This document shows, piece after piece, positions 2,279 through 64,000 of a stretch of 64,000 nt of DNA. Below the pieces are notes generated by a model. It saw nothing but the letters and a program-made list of their open reading frames with translations, did not search any database and was not told the DNA's origin. Source of the DNA: a phage; the sequence record PZ402300.1. The stretch is one strand, 5' to 3'. The translations under genes were made by a program, and so were the position numbers. How positions within the stretch are numbered: the stretch's first letter is position 1; every line of letters starts with the position of its first letter.

Positions 2279-2989
2279 ATGCAAAAATTATCGGAAGTAT
2301 ATCGTGGCTTGGCACTAAGTACCTTAAAAGGTACTGGTGCAGTCACTGATAACAGATTAGATATTGAACCGGATAGTAAGCCAGAAATATTGGCTGCTAT
2401 TAATGAGGGGCTGGTACGTCTGCATAGTCGTTTCCCTCTTAGGACTAATAACTGCATTGTGGAAATGAAGGAAGGTCGTACTGATTATCCCCTTCAATCC
2501 AAATATGCTTACTCCAGATTTACTAAGCCTACTCTTGAGATTCAATATCCATACATCATGGATGGGTTCATGAAACCTTTCCAGGATGATGTTATTAAAA
2601 TCTTAAATGTGTTTGATAACTCAGGGAATCGACGTAGACTGAACGACGATTCAGACCCTCATGCAATCTTCACCCCAAGACCGGATACTATTCAGTGTAT
2701 GCGACCTCGACACTTCGAGGCACTTAACGTAACTTATCAAGCTAAGCACCCAGTGCTTACGGGTGACGAAGAACAGGAAGTTGATTTAGCAGATACGCTA
2801 ATGACAGCACTTCATAACTGGGTGGGTTATCGTTACCACACTGGTTTGAATACTCCAGAGGCTAATGCTAAGGCAGCAGAGTATCTGCAAACGTATGAAA
2901 GCATCTGTGGTGAGGTTGTTGATTACGACCTGGCTAATGGAAGTATTTCAATTACCGAAACTAAATTTGAACAACGAGGATGGCGATGA
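2279..2989 (+). CDS. virion structural protein (hypothetical)
   Basis: 236-aa ORF with GAGGA upstream, between terminase and tail genes. Confidence 0.4.
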   Translation: MQKLSEVYRGLALSTLKGTGAVTDNRLDIEPDSKPEILAAINEGLVRLHSRFPLRTNNCIVEMKEGRTDYPLQSKYAYSRFTKPTLEIQYPYIMDGFMKPFQDDVIKILNVFDNSGNRRRLNDDSDPHAIFTPRPDTIQCMRPRHFEALNVTYQAKHPVLTGDEEQEVDLADTLMTALHNWVGYRYHTGLNTPEANAKAAEYLQTYESICGEVVDYDLANGSISITETKFEQRGWR

Positions 2990-5724
2990 ACGCACATACC
3001 CCCTTTGATGCAAATCAGGATTGGTCCAATCCTTACTGCCAGAACAGTTCCAATGACCCAATGGTAGATGCACTACTTGGTAATGCTTACCATGTGGTTC
3101 GAACTGTTTACTGTAACCTGGGTAACCTTAAACTCATTTATGATTTCTTGAATAAATATGGAATGGTGTTAGGTGTTCAATCAGAAACTGAACTGAAGGC
3201 CATGCCTACCCGTGCATCTTATGTACGACTATATGGTTTTGATAACACCAATAAGAGAGTTGTTACAGACTATCTGTATGTAGATGGTGATCGTACAGGT
3301 GTAATCCCGGATGACCCTTCCGCTACTGGTTCCTGGATTCTGGTTGCCACTTCTAATTCAGATAGTGGTGGAGATGATGGCGAAGGTAAAGCATCACCAC
3401 CATACATTCCATACTCATATAATAATGGTTCTGCTATTGGTGGTGAAACCACTATACCAGTACCTGCTGGTACGGTTGGCGTACCGATGATTGTAATTGA
3501 TGGCTATACCAACTTAGTTGGTTATGGTTTTACTTACGATGCATCTACACTAACTGTTTCTCTGGCTCAACCATTGGAACCTGGTGATGAAGTACATCTG
3601 TTCTTGACTGGTACTCCAGCAGTTCCTAATAACCCTAATGTGTCTGATTGGGTTCAGATCAACTGGTTGTACAACGGTGGGTATGCTTCAGGTGGTGAGC
3701 AAGTAATTGCTATTCCTTACACATTTGAGTCAGTACCGGCTATCTATAAGAATGGAGAACGTTACTACGCAGGTTTAGCAGATAAGTCTTATGCAGTTGA
3801 TGCTGCTAACCAACGTATCCTTTTAACGGAACCATTGGAAACTAACGACCGTCTGATTATCACGATTGGTGGTGAGTCTACTACTCTGGTCATGTCTGAC
3901 CGTACTGTACAAGAAGTAGCACGCTCAACCAATGTTAAGGATTCAGAAGTAATTCTTAGCTCTAATACTTCCCAATACCTCAATGGTATGAAGGTAGTGT
4001 ATGACGTAGTATCTCAAAAGAGTTATGGTTTACCTTCATTGCCTACTAACGTCTATATCAATAAAGTAGAGAATGGTCAGTTAACTTATTCACCAGGTAA
4101 TACTACTGTTGACCTGTTACCTGTTCCTGATTCCGGTAAAGAAGTAAAAGATTTACTAGCAAGCACTAATGGTGCGAACAGTGTAGTAACTACTTCTGGA
4201 GATACTGTACAAGAATATATTAATAATTATATTCGTGTATTTCCTACAGTTGCAGCCGTACAGTCAGCTACGAATGTTCATGTAGGTGATACTATTCGAG
4301 TTCGGGCTTATCATGCTGGTGTTCCTTTCTCTGGTGCAGAGTGGGTTAAAACTTCTGAGATAGCTGCAATCAATCAGCATCCTGTTAACTTACAACGCTT
4401 AGCATTCACCGATAATCAGGGGTATGTGTACACACTGGTACAAGACCCAATGGCTGGTATTAACATTGAACAGATTGGTGGTCGCCCTTACAATTCTGCT
4501 GATTTACCAGGTTGTGATACTTCTGCTTTGTGGCTAGCTTTGCTTAACTACAAGCGTACTATTCCAACAAGTCGCTTAACAATTAACTTACCAGCAAGGG
4601 AATACTACTCATCTAAGGGCATCCCTGTATATCAATGGACTACTGTACGTTCTTCTGGAAAGTTTGATACTCAATTCAGAATTGGTAAAGGTTTATGGAC
4701 TGAGGCTGAGATACCTCCTACTGGCTTTTCCGGTGCTAACACATTCTGGAGTACTAAATCTTTCCATTTCTCCATTGTGCATCCAGAAAATATTCATGCT
4801 TCTAATGTTAAACTAGAGGGCATTGATTTCGTTACTAATGCCGGGGAATCAACTGATTATGGGCTGTATTTCCCATACTTTAATGACGTTATTGTCAGCA
4901 ATGTTCGTAACATCGGGCAGGATATTGGCTTATACTACATCAATGGTTACTCCAGTATTTTCCATCGACACTTATCTACTGCACGGACTAATACTCCAAC
5001 TACTGCTGGTAGTTGGAGTGTTCGTTGCGTAGAACGTGTAGTTGGTGGTGGATGTGGTACAAGTATAATTTTTTCCCAATGTGGACATACCGACTATATT
5101 TTAGGTTGGTCTTTAACTGGCATGACTTATACCCACCTAGACACCTGTTATACAGAAGGCACTAAGTCTGAAGTTGTTGGTAACTTTATCGATTGCCCTG
5201 ATTTGGTAATTACCAGTTATGGTATCGAACGATTAACTTCAGCAAGAACAGCAGCATTAATTAAAATTACTAATGGTTCTGTAGTAATTAATGGTATTAA
5301 TGCTGCATACGCCGTTAATGCTAATAATAATACTTTCTTACATATTGATGGTAACTGTAAGTTTTCTGTTAATGGGTTAGATATGAAATATCTAGTCAAT
5401 GGTCCTACCACTGGCTTAATTTATACTAGCTCTAGTGCAGAAGGTTTCATCAGCCCGGTCGTTTACCCTACTACAGGTACATATGCAAACATCCTAGGTG
5501 CTAACACATTTATGCTGGGTACTGGTGGTAACGTTACCCCACAGACTGCAAGTGCTGCTGCTGCTAACTTCAACTCCCTAACTGATGCTATAAACACAGT
5601 TGGTAAGTTCCAGGGCAAAGGGATTTATGATCGTACACTGGGGTGTGTAGTGTACGCGTCTGATTCTACTCCTGAATCAGTATGGCGAAATGGTACTGGT
5701 GCTGTTGCTTATACCCCAGCTTAA
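2980..5724 (+). CDS. tail protein (tail fibre or tube-like), 914 aa
   Basis: Large Gly/Ser/Thr-rich ORF in tail module; followed by a hairpin at 5731-5748. Confidence 0.45.
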   Translation: MAMNAHTPFDANQDWSNPYCQNSSNDPMVDALLGNAYHVVRTVYCNLGNLKLIYDFLNKYGMVLGVQSETELKAMPTRASYVRLYGFDNTNKRVVTDYLYVDGDRTGVIPDDPSATGSWILVATSNSDSGGDDGEGKASPPYIPYSYNNGSAIGGETTIPVPAGTVGVPMIVIDGYTNLVGYGFTYDASTLTVSLAQPLEPGDEVHLFLTGTPAVPNNPNVSDWVQINWLYNGGYASGGEQVIAIPYTFESVPAIYKNGERYYAGLADKSYAVDAANQRILLTEPLETNDRLIITIGGESTTLVMSDRTVQEVARSTNVKDSEVILSSNTSQYLNGMKVVYDVVSQKSYGLPSLPTNVYINKVENGQLTYSPGNTTVDLLPVPDSGKEVKDLLASTNGANSVVTTSGDTVQEYINNYIRVFPTVAAVQSATNVHVGDTIRVRAYHAGVPFSGAEWVKTSEIAAINQHPVNLQRLAFTDNQGYVYTLVQDPMAGINIEQIGGRPYNSADLPGCDTSALWLALLNYKRTIPTSRLTINLPAREYYSSKGIPVYQWTTVRSSGKFDTQFRIGKGLWTEAEIPPTGFSGANTFWSTKSFHFSIVHPENIHASNVKLEGIDFVTNAGESTDYGLYFPYFNDVIVSNVRNIGQDIGLYYINGYSSIFHRHLSTARTNTPTTAGSWSVRCVERVVGGGCGTSIIFSQCGHTDYILGWSLTGMTYTHLDTCYTEGTKSEVVGNFIDCPDLVITSYGIERLTSARTAALIKITNGSVVINGINAAYAVNANNNTFLHIDGNCKFSVNGLDMKYLVNGPTTGLIYTSSSAEGFISPVVYPTTGTYANILGANTFMLGTGGNVTPQTASAAAANFNSLTDAINTVGKFQGKGIYDRTLGCVVYASDSTPESVWRNGTGAVAYTPA

Positions 5725-5774: not shown

Positions 5775-7226
5775 ATGAAAGACATGTTTGCTCAAGGTGG
5801 TTCTGGTTCTGTTGGAATCAAAACCAATAAACAAGCTATAGCTAGACACTTTGGTGTTAAGCAATCTGATGTTGTTTATTTCTCTCCCGGTGTTCCCCTT
5901 ACCGGTTACAAAGTTATCTATGACAAAGAATCACAGAGGGCTTACTCATTACCCACCGACATTGGTTCAGGGGTGACTGCTGTAAGCCTTAGCAAACAGG
6001 CTGTCCTGGTTCATTCAGCAGGTACAGTTGATTTGGGGGAACTGGCTGCTACACGAAGAGAGTTTGTGAGCTTATCCGACTCGTTTGCTACTGGTTTGGT
6101 AGTAAATACCCGAAATGAGCTTTTGATGCATAATGGTATAGGATATACCTACTTAGGTGCTCTACCGGTAACAATTACCGCAGGAACTAACCCTGTTGGT
6201 AACTCTGATTGGAAACCGCAGACAGACCCTAATTTAAGGGGAGAGTTATCTACATATGGCATTGGCACTGGTTCTCAGATGGTGGATGGTTTGGCAGTAG
6301 AGTCACTTAACCTAACCTCACCACAGACTAACATAACCCCCCTTGGGCGACATGCGTTAGGTAAAAATGCTAGTGGTCTGGGTATGATGTATCGGGTAGT
6401 GGAATCAGCCGAAGCTTCAGCTGACGGTACTGTCGTCATAGACCGTACAGACGGCAATAAGTTGGTACTTAACATCACTGATTCAATTGATGTTCGGTTT
6501 TTTGCTAACGGTATGAGAACTGATCAGCAAATTCTACAGGCGGCATTAGACTATGCAGGTAGTGTTGCTGGATTCTGTGAAGTTAAGATAACTCCAAAAA
6601 ATTTAAATGGGGATCCATGGGTATTTTCCGGGCTTCATATTGGGCCAAAAACTATATTAAGTGGTGCAGGTGGCTGGCTTAAGTTTGCCGATAACATCTG
6701 TACCAATGCCTCTACATCATATTACCTCATCGAGAATTTTGACTCAGATGACGTGCACATAAGAAACCTCTACATAGACGGAAACCAGGTTAACAATACC
6801 CAGTATCTGGTGGCTGACATCCTTACATTTGGTGGCAATAGGTGTTCACTTACAAATGTATCTTTAGTTAATGCTCCCGATTCTGGATTAATGTTCGCTA
6901 CAACTAAGAACTGCTGGGTTAATGGCCTCTATGTAGAAAACACCCGTGACCTCGGAATCTATTTATCTGCTGGTGTAGTTGGTGGTACACGTAACTGTGC
7001 TATGTCCAATCTGGTGTTACGTAACTGCGCTCATGGAGCTATGGGGTTCAAACGCTATGTTGCTGATATTATTGTGGATAATGTTATAGCTACAAACTGC
7101 GGCAATGGAATAACGTTTGAAGGGTTTGAATCGGAAACCCCAGGCATGAACCCATCTAACATCACTATGAGTAACATACGCCTTCGTGATATTGGTTTCG
7201 GTTACAGAAGCGTAAGTGCGGCTTGA
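5775..7226 (+). CDS. tailspike-like protein with right-handed beta-helix repeats, N-terminal fragment truncated by a frameshifting duplication
   Basis: Repeated N-x-x-(V/I)-x-N/G-C motifs typical of pectate-lyase-like beta-helix; good RBS GAGGT; premature TGA created at 7224-7226. Confidence 0.6.
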   Translation: MKDMFAQGGSGSVGIKTNKQAIARHFGVKQSDVVYFSPGVPLTGYKVIYDKESQRAYSLPTDIGSGVTAVSLSKQAVLVHSAGTVDLGELAATRREFVSLSDSFATGLVVNTRNELLMHNGIGYTYLGALPVTITAGTNPVGNSDWKPQTDPNLRGELSTYGIGTGSQMVDGLAVESLNLTSPQTNITPLGRHALGKNASGLGMMYRVVESAEASADGTVVIDRTDGNKLVLNITDSIDVRFFANGMRTDQQILQAALDYAGSVAGFCEVKITPKNLNGDPWVFSGLHIGPKTILSGAGGWLKFADNICTNASTSYYLIENFDSDDVHIRNLYIDGNQVNNTQYLVADILTFGGNRCSLTNVSLVNAPDSGLMFATTKNCWVNGLYVENTRDLGIYLSAGVVGGTRNCAMSNLVLRNCAHGAMGFKRYVADIIVDNVIATNCGNGITFEGFESETPGMNPSNITMSNIRLRDIGFGYRSVSAA

Positions 7227-33232: not shown

Positions 33233-33470
33233 TTAGTAGCTTTAACGCAGCTAACGAGGCTAGGTCGTCAAACTACTATCACTAGTGTGCTAAGCGACGG
33301 TGGGTTGTTAGCCTGATAGTAGTAAGACGTAGGTTTGGATTTTTAAGTGTTACCTTCACTAGCGAAATTCCCATCGAGGGGAATAACAATACAATAGCAG
33401 CCACTGGACTGTCTTACCAGTGTTGTCTTTAGAGTGCGATGCAATCAGGACTATGTTACTGCTAAATGAG

Positions 33471-33544
33471 TACCCACTACTGGATTTGAACCAGTGACCT
33501 TCCGATTATTAGTCGGTTGCTTTCCCCGTCTAAGCTAAGTGGGC
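33471..33544 (-). tRNA. tRNA, 74 nt, no encoded CCA; anticodon loop CUAAUAA (anticodon read as AAU)
   Basis: 7-bp acceptor stem, D-arm GCUU/AAGC, T-arm ACUGG-UUCAAAU-CCAGU folded by hand. Confidence 0.6.
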
Positions 33545-33549
33545 ATAAA

Positions 33550-33625
33550 TGGTTACCCGGACAGGATTCGAACCTGTGTCCTAGTTGGTTTACTAGTGGG
33601 GCTTTACCACTAAGCCTACCGGGTA
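33550..33625 (-). tRNA. tRNA-like gene with encoded CCA; anticodon arm atypical, isotype undetermined
   Basis: Perfect acceptor stem UACCCGG/CCGGGUA, D-arm GGCU/AGCC, T-arm ACAGG-UUCGAAU-CCUGU; anticodon stem is palindromic CUAG with 8-nt loop UAAACCAA. Confidence 0.5.
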
Positions 33626-61060: not shown

Positions 61061-61248
61061 TTAACTTAATGCATAATCTGTTTCAAGGATGTCCTGCCAG
61101 AGGCTGTCATCCAGCTTACCAGCAGAGAACTCTTGTCCCAGTACCTGAGTCAGGATGAATCCCAGTAAGTCACTCTTAGCAATGTCAGACAGAATCTGAT
61201 TGTACTGACGACGCAGGTCATTACCGTAGTTAGGATGGCATCTAAAAC
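61061..61248 (-). CDS. T7-like single-subunit RNA polymerase, exon 3 (C-terminal 62 codons)
   Basis: Spliced reading gives ...HD-CFRCHPNYGNDL...DILETDYALS, aligning with the T7 RNAP C-terminus HDSFGTIP...DILESDFAFA. Confidence 0.55.
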
Positions 61249-62216
61249 CATTAGTTAAACGAGTCGTTAGCTCGCCCTTACCTTCCATGATTAACATGGA
61301 AGCCATACGTAGCATCTGCTTCTTTACGAGCAAGCATTGCCTCCTCAAGTGTGTCATACGTACCCAGACCGATCTGTTTACGATTGACTGTGATGTGTGC
61401 CTGGAATCTACCAGAAGGTAATATTCTTACACCATTCACTTTGCTTGATGTATTACGTGATAAACCCATATTCATCTGGTTCTGTCTACTGGTTACATTT
61501 CTCAGATTAGACCAACGGTTGTCGTTTCTAATGTGATTGATGTGATCCACCTGGTTAGGTGTTTCCCCTGTTTCCATTATCCAGATTATTCGATGCAGTA
61601 AGTACTCTTTACGACCCAGACTAACAGATAAATAGCCTTCTTTGTGAGGATACCCCACAATTGTTCCGGCTAATCCACTAGCAGAGTCGTAACGATGAGT
61701 TACTAGCCCACTTTCTCTGTCATACCGTAAAACCTTCTTCAAAGATTCTTGGGTAATAGTATCCAAGTCTTTTATCAGGTTCTTACAGGTAGGACATAGG
61801 TGGCCTATTGGACTCTTTTTAGCATCATAGAAGTTGCAAACAAACTCACTAGAGCATTGCTTACAACTACAGATAGCTGTGTACTTACCAGTTTTACGTA
61901 ATATTTGGGAGTTATCTAACATATGGATTCCTTAGTAATTTTGCATACAATTTCAGATTGTATCCTAACCAAGGAAGTAAGTCTCCAGTTTTCACTGGAG
62001 TATCGGACTATATCATCACCCACTAATCAGTGGGGCAAGGCGCTTGGGTGGTCACTTGACTCACCTACTCTACTCACATACGAAATGTTTTCGATAGTCT
62101 CTGAACCTTCCCTCATGGAGGGCTTGGCTGCTGATTGGCATATCCATAGGACTTAGCTTTCCAGCAATTCACCTTGTTTTCGACACGGATTACTCCGTGA
62201 AGGATCATTTATGTTT
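61249..62216 (-). mobile_element. group I intron 2 with HNH-AP2 homing endonuclease ORF
   Basis: P gaattgctggaaag 62170-62156, Q aatcagcagcc 62136-62126, R gttcagagactatcg 62106-62092, S gatgatatagtccga 62017-62003; ends in G; boundaries +/- a few nt. Confidence 0.65.
61278..61922 (-). CDS. HNH homing endonuclease with AP2-like DNA-binding domain (intron-encoded)
   Basis: HNH motif DHINHIRNDNRWSNLR; AP2-like GVRILPSGRFQAHITVNRKQIGLGTYDTLEEA. Confidence 0.75.
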   Translation of the reverse strand: MLDNSQILRKTGKYTAICSCKQCSSEFVCNFYDAKKSPIGHLCPTCKNLIKDLDTITQESLKKVLRYDRESGLVTHRYDSASGLAGTIVGYPHKEGYLSVSLGRKEYLLHRIIWIMETGETPNQVDHINHIRNDNRWSNLRNVTSRQNQMNMGLSRNTSSKVNGVRILPSGRFQAHITVNRKQIGLGTYDTLEEAMLARKEADATYGFHVNHGR

Positions 62217-62824
62217 AATCATGTACAGTCATTACAGGGAATGGCTTCTTAGGTAAAGTATTGAGCATAGTCAGGATTACATCTGTATCAACCAATGCAA
62301 TGGTTTCTGAGTCCAGATAATCAAAGATACGGGTAGACAGAAAGCCTGATTTCTCATAGCTAGCCCACAGTGTATTAACCGTTTCATGACTAGCACCAGG
62401 GACAACTATGTATTCACCAGTTCCTTCACAGAGGGACTTAATATAGTTCACCTGGTTCACGTTGAAGTTACAACGACGCAGCATCTCACGTACCACCATC
62501 CCATCAATAGAGTGAGTGATGTTAGCAGAGAGCATACGGGTCTTCTCTTCAGTACCCTGAACCATACGAGTGATGTCGAATGGCTTACCTAAGAAGTTAA
62601 CAGTCTGTACTTCAGGAACCATGACCTTAATGACAGCATGGAAGTTGTCAGGAAGTACCCATACGTAACGGTTAGCATCAGGATTACCACATTGCAGTAA
62701 GAACTTGTTAAGTGCCCAAGGACCACTAGCAACAGTTTCCATTACATTCTCAAAAGTCTTGAGACGAATACCTTCACCGAATACTTCTTTAGGCTTGGCT
62801 TCTGAGCCGTAGAATGCAGTCATA
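62217..62824 (-). CDS. T7-like single-subunit RNA polymerase, exon 2 (motif B to catalytic HD)
   Basis: MTAFYGS aligns with T7 MTLAYGS; ends PVMTVHD aligning with T7 FALIHD; UAA stop sits at the junction. Confidence 0.65.
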
Positions 62825-63631
62825 CATTATGTTCAAGGGAGGTCGTTAGTCTCCCCCAGCAGCTTTACCTGCATCTCACTGTTACCAGTGAGTTCGGACT
62901 ATATCATCTAGACTGATAGTCTAGCCGGGCGCTTCGACCCACTTGGGCCTACTCTACTAAGTTCAGCTTTCGCTGCTTTTCGATAGTCTCTGCACCTTTT
63001 GGTTATTCAAAACAGCATCACACATATCAATAAAGTCATTGGTTGAGAGGTCACCCTTTGCTCGGTTTACACACCAAGCTAACCATTGAACATTACCAAT
63101 ACTGTATCCTTTACTTGGTTCTATCTGATCTAGTGATAGACACAAAGGATGCCCCGATTCAATTACTAAGGTTGCTCCAGTTAAAGCACATTTAAATTCC
63201 TGTGATTTAAGGATTTCAAATAAATACTCTACTGTACAATCTGGCATAGGCTTACCAAACTTTTTACACCGACTTCTTGCATCCTTTAGTCTATGGGAGA
63301 CTGCGGAATACCATTTACGGTGTTCTTTTGGTATTGCTTTACGAACTCCAGTTCCATTGTAACCTGGGTTCTTTTTACGCCATTCACGAGCTACAGCAGC
63401 CTTACAGGGTCTGCAACGATTCTCGTAATTAGTTTTGAATCCTGTGAGTGATTTTTTAGTCTCTGGGAATACTTCGATAGGAAGTAATTTTTTACATCGA
63501 CTACATGTTTTGAATTCTGACATAGAATGCTCCTTATTGAACTTTCTACGCTACCAACTTGGCTCATGATTGTCCACTAGGGATGTTCCATGAGTTCACC
63601 CGGTTTTAAGGCCGCCATGACTTAAAGGTTA
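62825..63631 (-). mobile_element. group I intron 1 with HNH homing endonuclease ORF
   Basis: P1: exon AGGCCGU pairs with GCGGCCU (63615-63609); P10 GUCAU/AUGAC; P gaactcatgg, Q caatcatgagcc, R 62996-62981, S 62908-62894; last nt G. Confidence 0.7.
62963..63523 (-). CDS. HNH-family homing endonuclease (intron-encoded)
   Basis: N-terminal CxxC...CxxC; C-terminal SLDQI..GY..GNVQWLAWCVNRAK motif; AAGGAG RBS. Confidence 0.65.
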   Translation of the reverse strand: MSEFKTCSRCKKLLPIEVFPETKKSLTGFKTNYENRCRPCKAAVAREWRKKNPGYNGTGVRKAIPKEHRKWYSAVSHRLKDARSRCKKFGKPMPDCTVEYLFEILKSQEFKCALTGATLVIESGHPLCLSLDQIEPSKGYSIGNVQWLAWCVNRAKGDLSTNDFIDMCDAVLNNQKVQRLSKSSES

Positions 63632-64000
63632 ACGGCCTGCTTAGTGTCACTACGCTTAATACGTGATGCTTCACCAAGGATGTCCAGCATCTTGTGATAG
63701 ATAACTGTATAGGCATCACGGCGTAATGGCTTACCATTCTCATCCATGTAGTTAACTACGTTACACAGTTCAGCAGCAGAGCGGTCACCAGTCAGACAGG
63801 CCAGTAACTGTAAGCCTGATGATGTAGCATCCAGAGCTACAGCATAACCAATAGGCTTACCTGCTTTCATATCTTTCCATGCATTTACACCTGCAAAGAA
63901 CAGAGCAGAATCCTCTGCTTCATCTACCAGATTAAGCAGGTTAGCTTCATTCTCATCGAACCAGGCAATACGTTCATCCCATGTCTTTTTATCTAAGCCA
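63632..64000 (-). CDS. T7-like single-subunit RNA polymerase, exon 1 (partial; continues beyond window end)
   Basis: LDATSSGLQLLA aligns with T7 FDGSCSGIQHFSA; RSDTKQAV aligns with T7 RSVTKRSV. Confidence 0.65.

What the first reader, a model, noticed from the sequence alone, without database searches (positions are those of the whole stretch)
61061..64000. T7-like RNA polymerase gene split into three exons by two group I introns
The three minus-strand ORF fragments 63622-63870, 62215-62823 and 61061-61357 each align to consecutive parts of the T7 RNAP C-terminal half (motif after motif A, motif B, HD catalytic motif, C-terminal foot). They are separated by ~0.8 and ~1.0 kb inserts that each carry an HNH endonuclease ORF and group I core elements. 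An essential transcription enzyme interrupted twice by self-splicing introns is unusual for this phage type as far as I know.
Basis: partly seen in the sequence, partly recalled or inferred. Interest (0 to 1): 0.85.

Follow-up and report, generated by a model that had tools for sequence, protein, structure and literature searches.

The report
Two self-splicing introns in phage RNA polymerase
The gene for the catalytic subunit of this N4-like coliphage's middle RNA polymerase is interrupted by two mobile group I introns, each carrying its own nuclease gene; this is real, but it is a familiar kind of selfish element, and one of the two has already been shown to splice in sister phages.

Summary
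The window comes from a G7C-like (Gamaleyavirus, Schitoviridae) phage. Three minus-strand segments (64000-63632, 62824-62217 and 61248-61061) join into a protein colinear with N4 RNAPII large subunit gp16 (PDB 6DT7_B, E 2.7e-181).

- **Intron 2** (62216-61249, 968 nt) scores 92.8 bits against Rfam RF00028. It carries an HNH_3/AP2 nuclease gene downstream of P9.
- **Intron 1** (63631-62825, 807 nt) misses the Rfam threshold (36 bits). It nevertheless has P1, P10, a U·G 5' splice site and a terminal G. Its core is supported by covariation: 33 of 67 pairs show compensatory changes across five phages. A PacI-like nuclease gene loops out of P6a.
- **Insertion sites:** the introns sit in catalytic motifs B and C.

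A 2019 preprint showed by RT-PCR that an ~800-bp g16 insertion splices in G7C-like phages, with the same junction peptide (QAV|MTAFYGSEAK). Homologous introns at the same sites occur in at least seven other Schitoviridae lineages, mostly annotated as split genes. One other public contig carries both introns, and single-intron and intronless alleles also exist. The introns are 95-99% identical between phages whose exons are 73-83% identical, which points to horizontal spread by homing. This is a new member of a known kind, of modest interest.

The parts
63632..64000 (-). Exon 1 of the gp16 homologue (RNAPII large subunit), cut by the window edge. It encodes residues equivalent to G7C gp16 aa 19-141 plus 2 nt of the Val codon, and contains motif A (ALDATSSGLQ) and the first half of motif B (IKRSDTKQAV).
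   Evidence: tblastn; blastn; alignment to N4 RNAP2 6DT7_B
62825..63631 (-). Intron 1, a group I intron of 807 nt. The 5' splice site follows U63632 (GGCCGU|UAACC). The last base is G62825 (AUAAUG|UAUGAC).
   Evidence: published splicing of the equivalent g16 intron
63610..63621 (-). Internal guide sequence of intron 1, GUCAUGGCGGCC. GCGGCC pairs with the 5' exon GGCCGU (P1, U·G at the splice site). GUCAUG pairs with the 3' exon UAUGAC (P10).
   Evidence: read directly from the sequence; identical or near-identical in Burkholderia HN02 and Achromobacter JWAlpha
63553..63603 (-). Intron 1 5' core: P3 5' strand (63603-63597), P4-P5-P4', P6 (GCC) and P6a 5' strand (UUGGU, 63557-63553). There is no P2.
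   Evidence: Rfam partial hit 63593-63537; covariation
63520..63551 (-). Hairpin that pairs the start codon of the intron 1 nuclease ORF and encloses its Shine-Dalgarno sequence (AAGGAG). It is a likely translational brake.
   Evidence: strand folding (-12.5 kcal/mol, z -4.3, 0/200 shuffles as good); the same hairpin with different stem sequences in 6 of 7 homologues
62963..63523 (-). Intron 1 ORF of 186 aa, looped out of P6a: a PacI-like ββα-Me (His-Me finger) nuclease with a CxxC...CxxC pair. Its last codons (K V Q R L S) are encoded by the P6 3' strand, J6/7 and P7 of the ribozyme.
   Evidence: PHROG 1035 'endonuclease VII' 1e-31; no Pfam hit; AF2 pLDDT 82.7; Foldseek best hit PacI 3LDY; alignment A2
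62825..63003 (-). Intron 1 3' core: P6a' (ACCAA), P6' (GGU), P7 (GACUA 62988-62984), P7.1, P7.2, P3', P8, J8/7, P7', P9, P9.1, a terminal hairpin (62857-62835, loop CUAACGA) and UUGAACAUAAUG ending in the terminal G.
62217..62824 (-). Exon 2. It encodes the second half of motif B (MTAFYGS) through the His-Asp of motif C (TVHD), plus the first nucleotide of the next Cys codon.
61249..62216 (-). Intron 2, a group I intron of 968 nt. The 5' splice site follows U62217 (CAUGAUU|AAACAU). The last base is G61249 (CUAAUG|GUUUUAGA). Splicing rebuilds the codon U|GU = Cys, giving HDCFRCH.
   Evidence: Rfam RF00028 92.8 bits
61983..62216 (-). Intron 2 ribozyme core, P1-P9. The guide sequence AAAUGAUC (62210-62203) pairs with GAUU (P1) and GUUU (P10). 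P2, P3-P8 with P7.1/P7.2, and P9 are present.
   Evidence: cmscan alignment (hit 62226-61983, full model 1-253)
61928..61976 (-). Stem in which the Shine-Dalgarno sequence of the intron 2 ORF (AAGGAA) pairs with UUCCUU, enclosing a small hairpin.
   Evidence: strand folding (-15 kcal/mol, z -2.0); weak support
61278..61922 (-). Intron 2 ORF of 214 aa, an HNH_3 nuclease with an AP2-like DNA-binding domain. It lies downstream of P9, so the 3' splice site is about 730 nt from the core.
   Evidence: Pfam HNH_3 57.5 bits (cut-off 24.8), AP2 22.5 bits (below cut-off 33.3); PHROG 99 1e-58
61249..61277 (-). Intron 2 3' terminal element: hairpin CGAG-CUAACGA-CUCG (61274-61260), then UUUAACUAAUG ending in the terminal G.
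   Evidence: equivalent hairpins in ZC08 and MIF8
61061..61248 (-). Exon 3 (including the stop codon): the rest of motif C (CFRCHPNYG) and the C-terminal ...DYALS.

Best explanation
The gene is the Gamaleyavirus homologue of N4 gp16, the catalytic large subunit of the heterodimeric T7-family RNA polymerase II that transcribes middle genes. Two mobile group I introns of the IA2-like type (with P7.1/P7.2) interrupt it. Intron 1 splits motif B between the 2nd and 3rd base of the Val codon before MTAFYGS. Intron 2 splits motif C one base after the catalytic His-Asp. After transcription each intron RNA folds. Its guide sequence holds the 5' exon (P1, U·G) and later the 3' exon (P10). Guanosine-initiated transesterifications then remove the intron and restore an uninterrupted gp16 mRNA. 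Unspliced RNA hits stop codons 2 codons (intron 1) or 0 codons (intron 2) after the 5' splice site. Each intron carries a nuclease gene outside the catalytic core: in the P6a loop for intron 1 (the arrangement recalled for T4 td), and downstream of P9 for intron 2 (the arrangement recalled for T4 nrdD/sunY, with a remote 3' splice site). These nucleases most likely cut intronless gp16 alleles of co-infecting relatives at the conserved motif B and C DNA, and repair from the intron-bearing copy spreads the intron (homing). Hairpins that occlude the nuclease start sites probably keep nuclease translation low. Shown here: exon colinearity, exact splice sites, the ribozyme structures, the nuclease folds, and introns more conserved than their host gene. 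Taken from the literature: in vivo splicing of the intron 1 equivalent. Inferred: self-splicing of this copy, splicing of intron 2, nuclease activity and targets, and translational control.
For: - **Host gene.** The spliced product is colinear with N4 RNAP2 (6DT7_B, E 2.7e-181) and 356/387 identical to G7C gp16. It matches Pfam RNA_pol.
- **Intron 2.** It scores 92.8 bits on RF00028 over the full model.
- **Intron 1.** P1, P10, U·G and the terminal G are read directly from the sequence. Across five phages 89.4% of cells are paired, against 30-41% when partners are slid. 33 of 67 pairs show double changes, and 0 of 500 shuffles reach the observed values.
- **Same insertion sites elsewhere.** Burkholderia HN02, Achromobacter JWAlpha, and Vibrio phi 1 and pVco-5 share the motif B site. 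Pseudomonas ZC08, Escherichia ZQ2 and Shigella Moonfish share the motif C site.
- **Introns more conserved than exons.** Against contig L012 the introns are 96.4% and 95.1% identical, while the exons are 80%, 73% and 83%. Against ZQ2, intron 2 is 99.0% identical and exon 2 is 79%.
- **All four allele states exist:** none (G7C), intron 1 only (L014, L015), intron 2 only (ZQ2, Moonfish), and both (this window, L012).
- **Published splicing.** RT-PCR, junction sequencing and the junction peptide QAVMTAFYGSEAK are reported for an ~800-bp g16 insertion in G7C-like phages N4G2 and Sz33.
- **Nucleases.** HNH_3 for the intron 2 ORF. PHROG endonuclease VII and a PacI-like fold for the intron 1 ORF.
Against: - Intron 1 does not reach the Rfam gathering score (36.1 against 50).
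- No RNA data exist for this phage.
- I could not compare the N4G2/Sz33 insertion with intron 1 at sequence level, because those genomes were not among the hits. The match rests on host gene, size and junction peptide.
- Splicing of intron 2 has not been reported in anything I could find.
- The intron 1 nuclease has Gln where the HNH general-base His normally sits, so its activity is uncertain.
- The flanking exons showed no clear co-conversion tracts.
- The covariation set is small (5 sequences, two of them close relatives), and the ORF was removed by hand before alignment.
Confidence: 0.9

Rival explanations
1. A 'gene in pieces': the inserts are unspliced nuclease cassettes, and the RNA polymerase subunit is made as three separate polypeptides that assemble. 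This has been proposed for the Aeromonas phage Aeh1 split nrdA and for the unspliced g39 insertion of G7C-like phage 10Gb.
For: Exon 2 starts with the conserved Met of motif B, so it forms a self-contained 202-aa ORF. GenBank records annotate the pieces as separate 'RNA polymerase' CDSs. The same preprint found a non-splicing insertion in g39 of phage 10Gb.
Against: Exon 3 has no start codon of its own. The only ATG-initiated ORF (from 61357) adds 36 unrelated residues and loses the Cys that splicing rebuilds. No Shine-Dalgarno sequence precedes the exon 2 ATG. The cuts fall inside motif B and one base after the catalytic Asp. Both inserts have complete ribozyme cores and guide sequences matching both exons. 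The g16 intron was shown to splice.
Confidence: 0.04
2. Only intron 2 is a working ribozyme. Intron 1 is a decayed or protein-dependent intron that no longer self-splices, so this allele depends on a host or phage factor or is defective.
For: Sub-threshold Rfam score, no P2, a short P5, and an ORF that overlaps P7.
Against: All core helices are intact with compensatory changes among homologues. The intron is 96% conserved in eight independent contigs. The nuclease ORF is intact and its family well conserved. The equivalent intron splices in E. coli, both during infection and from a plasmid.
Confidence: 0.05
3. An assembly or chimera artefact created the double interruption.
For: None specific. 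The two-intron allele is absent from the 50,697 phage records searched.
Against: An independent NCBI contig (L012, JANDFC010000012.1, 74.8 kb) has both introns at identical positions, with diverged exons and an intact spliced frame. The junctions are precise to the nucleotide.
Confidence: 0.01

Closest known systems
The g16 intron of G7C-like coliphages N4G2 and Sz33 (bioRxiv 10.1101/542787, 2019)
   Same: Same host gene (RNAP2 subunit A), same size class (~800 bp against 807 nt), an internal homing-nuclease ORF, no significant Rfam hit, and the same junction peptide QAV|MTAFYGSEAK. Splicing was shown by RT-PCR and by the size of the recombinant protein.
   Different: Those phages are reported with one insertion in g16, whereas this window has a second intron 608 nt downstream. 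Sequence identity to intron 1 could not be checked. The preprint gives no P1-P10 model and no covariation.
Group I introns of phage T4: td and nrdB (ORF in the P6 loop) and nrdD/sunY (ORF after P9, remote 3' splice site). Recalled from my own knowledge of Shub et al. 1988 and Michel et al. 1992.
   Same: An IA2-type core with P7.1/P7.2; nuclease ORFs looped out of P6a (intron 1) or placed 3' of P9 (intron 2); ORF start sites buried in RNA structure; insertion in conserved parts of essential enzyme genes.
   Different: The host gene is a T7-family RNA polymerase rather than a nucleotide-metabolism gene. The nucleases are ββα-Me/HNH types rather than the GIY-YIG I-TevI/II. Two introns occupy one gene of an N4-like podovirus.
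The ΦPA3 gp210 intron in a multisubunit RNA polymerase β-subunit gene (Birkholz et al. 2024, PMC11620839)
   Same: A group I intron with an HNH nuclease interrupting a phage RNA polymerase gene right next to catalytic aspartates.
   Different: A different polymerase family (multisubunit against single-subunit T7-like) and a jumbo phage. A competition role was demonstrated there and is only inferred here.
Split RNAP2 genes annotated in other Schitoviridae (JWAlpha/JWDelta, Vibrio phi 1, pVco-5/7, Burkholderia HN02/04/05, Acinetobacter XC38, Pseudomonas ZC08, Erwinia MIF8, Escherichia ZQ2, Shigella Moonfish)
   Same: Homologous introns and nucleases at the same motif B or motif C sites. Intron 2 is 99.0% identical to that of ZQ2 and 94.4% to that of Moonfish.
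   Different: Each of these carries one intron. They are annotated or discussed as two RNAP2 genes or as a homing-endonuclease insertion, not as introns. XC38 and MIF8 have their introns 6-7 nt downstream of the sites used here.

Membership tests
Group I intron (Rfam RF00028) | Covariance-model score at or above the curated gathering score (50 bits) | tested here: met
   Intron 2: 92.8 bits over model positions 1-253, at 62226-61983
Group I intron (Rfam RF00028) | Covariance-model score at or above the gathering score, for intron 1 | tested here: not met
   36.1 bits (E 7e-7 in a 3.2-kb search) plus a 16.7-bit fragment over P4-P6. The 561-nt ORF in L6a splits the core. The published G7C-set study also reports no Rfam hit.
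Group I intron | 5' splice site after a U that forms a U·G pair with an internal guide sequence (P1), and 3' exon pairing with the adjacent guide bases (P10) | tested here: met
   Intron 1: GGCCGU/GCGGCC and UAUGAC/GUCAUG, 12 contiguous pairs. Intron 2: GAUU/UGAUC and GUUU/AAAU.
Group I intron | A terminal guanosine as the last intron base | tested here: met
   G62825 and G61249, fixed by alignment to intronless G7C
Group I intron | A conserved core P3-P8 with the P3/P7 pseudoknot and J8/7, maintained by compensatory changes | tested here: met
   Intron 1 family: P3, P4, P6, P6a, P7, P7.2 and P9 are 100% paired, and 33 of 67 pairs show double changes. Intron 2: CM alignment. Both carry GAUAUAGUCC (J8/7-P7').
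Group I intron | Guanosine-dependent self-splicing of the RNA | not testable with these tools
   In vivo splicing is reported for the equivalent g16 intron in phages N4G2 and Sz33. Nothing is reported for intron 2.
HNH homing endonuclease | An HNH (ββα-Me) catalytic domain recognised by curated profiles | tested here: met
   Intron 2 ORF: Pfam HNH_3 57.5 bits against a cut-off of 24.8. AP2 scores 22.5 bits, below its cut-off of 33.3.
HNH homing endonuclease | An HNH catalytic domain with the canonical His general base, for the intron 1 ORF | tested here: inconclusive
   No Pfam hit even at E 10. PHROG 'endonuclease VII' 1e-31. The AF2 model shows β-β-α at residues 128-158, and the best PDB fold hit is PacI (E 1.3e-3), followed by Cas9 and Gme HNH domains. 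The position of the canonical His is Gln133 in at least 90% of 30 homologues.
HNH homing endonuclease | Cleaves the intronless allele at or near the insertion site and promotes intron homing | not testable with these tools
   Indirect only: the introns are 95-99% identical between phages whose exons are 73-83% identical.
[quoted passage not shown] | Full-length colinear similarity to gp16, with motifs A, B and C | tested here: met
   Residues 1-387 align to 19-404 of 6DT7_B with one 1-residue gap, E 2.7e-181. Pfam RNA_pol 37.7 bits. The location of the motifs in gp16 follows PMC4496689.

The most novel reading that the evidence does not exclude
The two intron nucleases act as weapons as well as homing devices. 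By cutting the DNA that encodes catalytic motifs B and C of the middle RNA polymerase in intronless co-infecting Gamaleyaviruses, a doubly armed phage would disable a rival's transcription programme and convert its allele, as shown for ΦPA3 gp210 against ΦKZ. A two-intron allele would then be protected against, and aggressive towards, both single-intron lineages. A weaker variant: splicing efficiency of two serial introns in an early transcript sets the timing of the early-to-middle switch.
Probability: 0.3. Interest if true: 0.5.

Novelty: new member of a known kind. Interest (0 to 1): 0.3.

Why it matters
**Practical value.** A whole set of Schitoviridae records annotate gp16 as two or three 'RNA polymerase' fragments plus a 'hypothetical protein' or 'endonuclease'. 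These should be re-annotated as one spliced gene with group I introns. The exact junctions given here make that possible.

**Biological value.**
- Motifs B and C of a T7-family polymerase are recurrent intron landing sites across at least eight Schitoviridae lineages.
- Closely related coliphages carry all four allele states (none, either intron, both). This makes a ready natural system for studying homing, marker exclusion and competition between N4-like phages.
- The intron 1 family shows why curated models miss ORF-bearing introns.

None of this changes how group I introns or N4 transcription are understood.

Tried and rejected
- **Pfam on the intron 1 ORF.** No hit at default thresholds or at E 10. 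A PDB sequence search gave only a chance UHRF1 hit. Classification came from PHROGs and a fold search.
- **Exact-sequence look-up of the intron 1 ORF.** Nothing on record. The 97%-identical cluster P0001 provided the context instead.
- **Co-conversion tracts.** I looked in the exons flanking the introns, comparing the window with L012. There is no clear gradient beyond the conserved motifs.
- **Direct T7 RNAP alignment by phmmer against the PDB.** Only N4 RNAP2 was found. The motif mapping therefore rests on the N4 review and on known T7 motif sequences.
- **Willis et al. 2002.** The paper is not held in the library.
- **One literature search** failed on a term that was too short.
- **Agrobacterium OLIVR1.** Its nuclease homologue appears free-standing rather than inside RNAP2, so I left it out of the intron set.
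- **Intein or group II intron.** Rejected: the ORFs are not in frame with the exons, and the RNA matches group I.
Full report
**What is there.** The window contains a 3,479-aa virion RNA polymerase ORF. Its right end matches G7C-like coliphages at 88-95% nucleotide identity (genus Gamaleyavirus, Schitoviridae). In G7C the corresponding gene is gp16, 'RNA polymerase RNAP2 subunit A', 405 aa and uninterrupted.

tblastn with G7C gp16 places aa 19-141, 142-343 and 344-405 on three minus-strand blocks. Nucleotide alignment against the intronless gene fixes the boundaries as follows:
- exon 1: 64000-63632, cut by the window edge
- intron 1: 63631-62825 (807 nt)
- exon 2: 62824-62217
- intron 2: 62216-61249 (968 nt)
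- exon 3: 61248-61061

Joining the exons gives an open frame of 387 codons. It is 356/387 identical to G7C gp16. It aligns over its whole length, with a single one-residue gap, to the N4 RNAPII large subunit whose structure is solved (6DT7 chain B, E 2.7e-181).

The N4 sequence reads straight through both junctions (KQAIMTALYGS, TVHDCFRCLPNYG). The second splice rebuilds a Cys codon from U|GU.

**Are the inserts group I introns?**

Intron 2 matches Rfam RF00028 over the full model at 92.8 bits, against a gathering score of 50.

Intron 1 does not reach threshold. It gives one 36.1-bit alignment that partly runs through the ORF, plus a 16.7-bit piece over P4-P6. Read by eye, it has all the defining parts:
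- **P1:** GGCCGU/GCGGCC, with U·G at the 5' splice site.
- **P10:** UAUGAC/GUCAUG directly adjacent, so the 12-nt guide GUCAUGGCGGCC pairs with the ligated exons.
- **Core:** P3, P4, a short P5, P6 and P6a, then P7, P7.1, P7.2, P3', P8, J8/7 (GAUAUAGUCC), P9 and two 3' hairpins.
- **3' end:** a terminal G.

The nuclease ORF loops out of P6a. I recall the same arrangement in T4 td.

I removed the ORF loop and aligned intron 1 with homologues from Burkholderia HN02, Achromobacter JWAlpha, and Vibrio phi 1 and pVco-5. Pair counts on that alignment were:
- 89.4% of cells form standard pairs, against 30-41% when partners are slid.
- 33 of 67 pairs carry changes on both sides.
- No shuffle out of 500 reaches the observed values.
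- P3, P4, P6, P6a, P7.2 and P9 are 100% paired with compensatory changes.

The set is small and the alignment was prepared by hand, but the signal is strong.

Intron 2 has the ORF downstream of P9. A short terminal hairpin and the terminal G lie about 730 nt from the core, an arrangement I recall from T4 nrdD/sunY. Its guide AAAUGAUC pairs with GAUU (P1) and GUUU (P10). The 3' halves of the two introns are related to each other (134 nt at 69% identity).

**Where they sit.** The review of N4 polymerases places motifs A, B and C in gp16.
- Intron 1 lies in IKRSDTKQAV|MTAFYGS, the counterpart of T7 motif B (RSVTKRSVMTLAYGS, from my own knowledge).
- Intron 2 lies in TVHD|CFRCH, the counterpart of T7 motif C (VHDSFGT), one base after the catalytic Asp codon.
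- Exon 1 contains motif A (LDATSSGLQ).

Translation of unspliced RNA stops after two extra codons at intron 1. At intron 2 it stops at once, at a UAA formed across the splice site.

**The nucleases.**

The intron 2 ORF (214 aa) is a Pfam HNH_3 protein with a sub-threshold AP2 domain.

The intron 1 ORF (186 aa) has no Pfam match. The evidence for its class is:
- PHROG 1035 'endonuclease VII' at 1e-31.
- An AlphaFold model (pLDDT 82.7) with a β-β-α unit.
- A best PDB fold match to PacI, followed by Cas9 and Gme HNH domains, McrA, Hpy99I and T4 endonuclease VII.

So it belongs to the His-Me finger superfamily. The residue at the usual general-base His position is Gln in nearly all of 30 homologues, so I cannot say whether it is active.

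Its invariant C-terminal K-V-Q-R-L-S is encoded by the P6 3' strand, J6/7 and P7 of the ribozyme (AAG GUG CAG AGA CUA UCG). This stretch is constrained both as protein and as RNA.

A hairpin pairs the ORF's AUG and encloses its Shine-Dalgarno sequence (z -4.3). It recurs with different stem sequences in six of seven homologues. In intron 2 the Shine-Dalgarno sequence pairs with UUCCUU (z -2.0). I read these as translational brakes, by analogy with the T4 intron ORFs. This is inference.

**How common is it?**

Intron 2 is 99.0% identical to an unannotated insert in Escherichia phage ZQ2 and 94.4% to one in Shigella phage Moonfish. A related intron occupies the identical site in Pseudomonas ZC08, where the spliced product reads HDCFAVHPN. 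In Erwinia MIF8 a related intron sits 6 nt downstream.

Intron-1-type elements occupy the identical site and codon phase in Burkholderia HN02/04/05, Achromobacter JWAlpha/JWDelta, and Vibrio phi 1 and pVco-5/7. In Acinetobacter XC38 the site is about 7 nt downstream.

A search of about 5.8 billion proteins found 159 homologues of the intron 1 nuclease at E ≤ 1e-10. All 30 homologues I aligned end in K-[V/E/A]-Q-R-L-S.

The 97%-identical cluster (P0001) maps to 13 contigs, of which 8 were fetched. One of them, NCBI JANDFC010000012.1, is a 74.8-kb phage contig in a 'Salmonella enterica' assembly. It carries both introns at the same positions, and its spliced frame is intact. Two metagenomic contigs carry intron 1 only.

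All four allele states therefore exist among close relatives. The introns are 95-99% identical between genomes whose exons are 73-83% identical. This is what horizontal spread by homing predicts.

**What is already known.**

A 2019 preprint on G7C-like horse phages (bioRxiv 10.1101/542787) describes an ~800-bp insertion with a homing-nuclease ORF in g16 of phages N4G2 and Sz33. The authors report:
- no Rfam hit;
- splicing shown by RT-PCR from infected cells, with the junction sequenced;
- a recombinant protein of spliced size;
- the junction peptide QAVMTAFYGSEAK.

That peptide is the junction I derive for intron 1, so intron 1 is in substance already described and validated. I could not align the two sequences, because those genomes were not among my hits.

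A group I intron in a phage RNA polymerase gene next to catalytic aspartates is also known from ΦPA3, though in a multisubunit enzyme.

I found no description of the motif C intron or of a two-intron gp16.

**Rivals.** Three separately translated fragments are unlikely. Exon 3 has no proper start, no ribosome-binding site precedes the exon 2 ATG, and the cuts fall inside catalytic motifs. A decayed intron 1 is unlikely given its intact and covarying core and the published splicing. An assembly artefact is excluded by the independent contig.

**Verdict.** It is a new member of a well-known kind of element: one intron has been characterised before and the other is easily recognised. The value lies in correcting annotations, and in a natural four-allele system for studying intron homing and phage competition. 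Interest 0.3.

Noticed in passing
window 62966-62998 (minus strand); alignment A2: The last residues of the intron 1 nuclease (K-V-Q-R-L-S) are invariant across 30 homologues that are otherwise only ~50% identical. The P6 3' strand, J6/7 and P7 of the ribozyme (AAG GUG CAG AGA CUA UCG) encode them, so the stretch is constrained as protein and as RNA.
   Followed up: partly
window 63520-63551 (minus strand); L004, L005, L006, L008, L012 upstream of the nuclease ORF: A hairpin pairs the nuclease start codon with an upstream CAU/CGU and holds the Shine-Dalgarno sequence in or near its loop. It is kept in 6 of 7 homologues, with different stem sequences. It probably limits nuclease translation.
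   Followed up: partly
window 63125-63127 (codon for Gln133 of ORF 62963-63523): The ββα-Me motif of the intron 1 nuclease reads SLDQ...GN.QW...VNRAKGD. Gln sits where HNH enzymes have the general-base His, and this holds in at least 90% of homologues. Whether the enzyme is active, and by what chemistry, is open. The best fold match is PacI.
   Followed up: partly
window 62835-62857 and 61260-61274 (minus strand); homologues in L004-L008, L011: Both introns end with a hairpin whose loop contains (C/U)UAACGA, followed by UU(G/U)AAC...AUG. The loop motif recurs in homologues with unrelated stems (not in ZC08). It may make a tertiary contact that docks the 3' splice site. No partner was identified.
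   Followed up: no
L008 (Acinetobacter phage XC38) about 1862-2690; L011 (Erwinia phage MIF8) about 2493-3450: Related introns sit 6-7 nt downstream of the two sites used here (MT S|GYG in motif B; HDA|FGCH in motif C). The same motifs have therefore been invaded at neighbouring but distinct positions.
   Followed up: partly
L012 = NCBI GCA_026132285.1 JANDFC010000012.1, locus 6019-6507: A 74.8-kb N4-like phage contig filed under a Salmonella enterica assembly carries both introns. It also has an extra free-standing HNH_3 gene just after exon 3 that this window lacks.
   Followed up: no
GenBank/RefSeq records PQ613263, NC_070874, NC_023556, NC_028799, NC_055717, NC_055823, NC_048639, PP700702, PP079243: gp16 is annotated as two or three separate 'RNA polymerase' or 'hypothetical protein' CDSs, with no intron feature. 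The exon 3 CDS in ZQ2 and Moonfish starts at an ATG inside the intron and carries about 20 spurious N-terminal residues.
   Followed up: partly
window 33470-33625 (minus strand): There are two adjacent tRNA genes. The first is tRNA-Ile (anticodon AAT by ARAGORN; 64.8 bits in Rfam). The second scores 42 bits in Rfam, but ARAGORN cannot assign its anticodon ('tRNA-???').
   Followed up: no
hits H42-H60 and H67-H90: Core segments of 75-190 nt from both introns match intron-like sequences at 73-85% identity. The matches lie in DNA polymerase genes of T4-like Aeromonas phages and of ~86-kb Salmonella and Escherichia phages, and in several Vibrio phages. The ribozyme cores therefore circulate widely between unrelated phage genes.
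   Followed up: no
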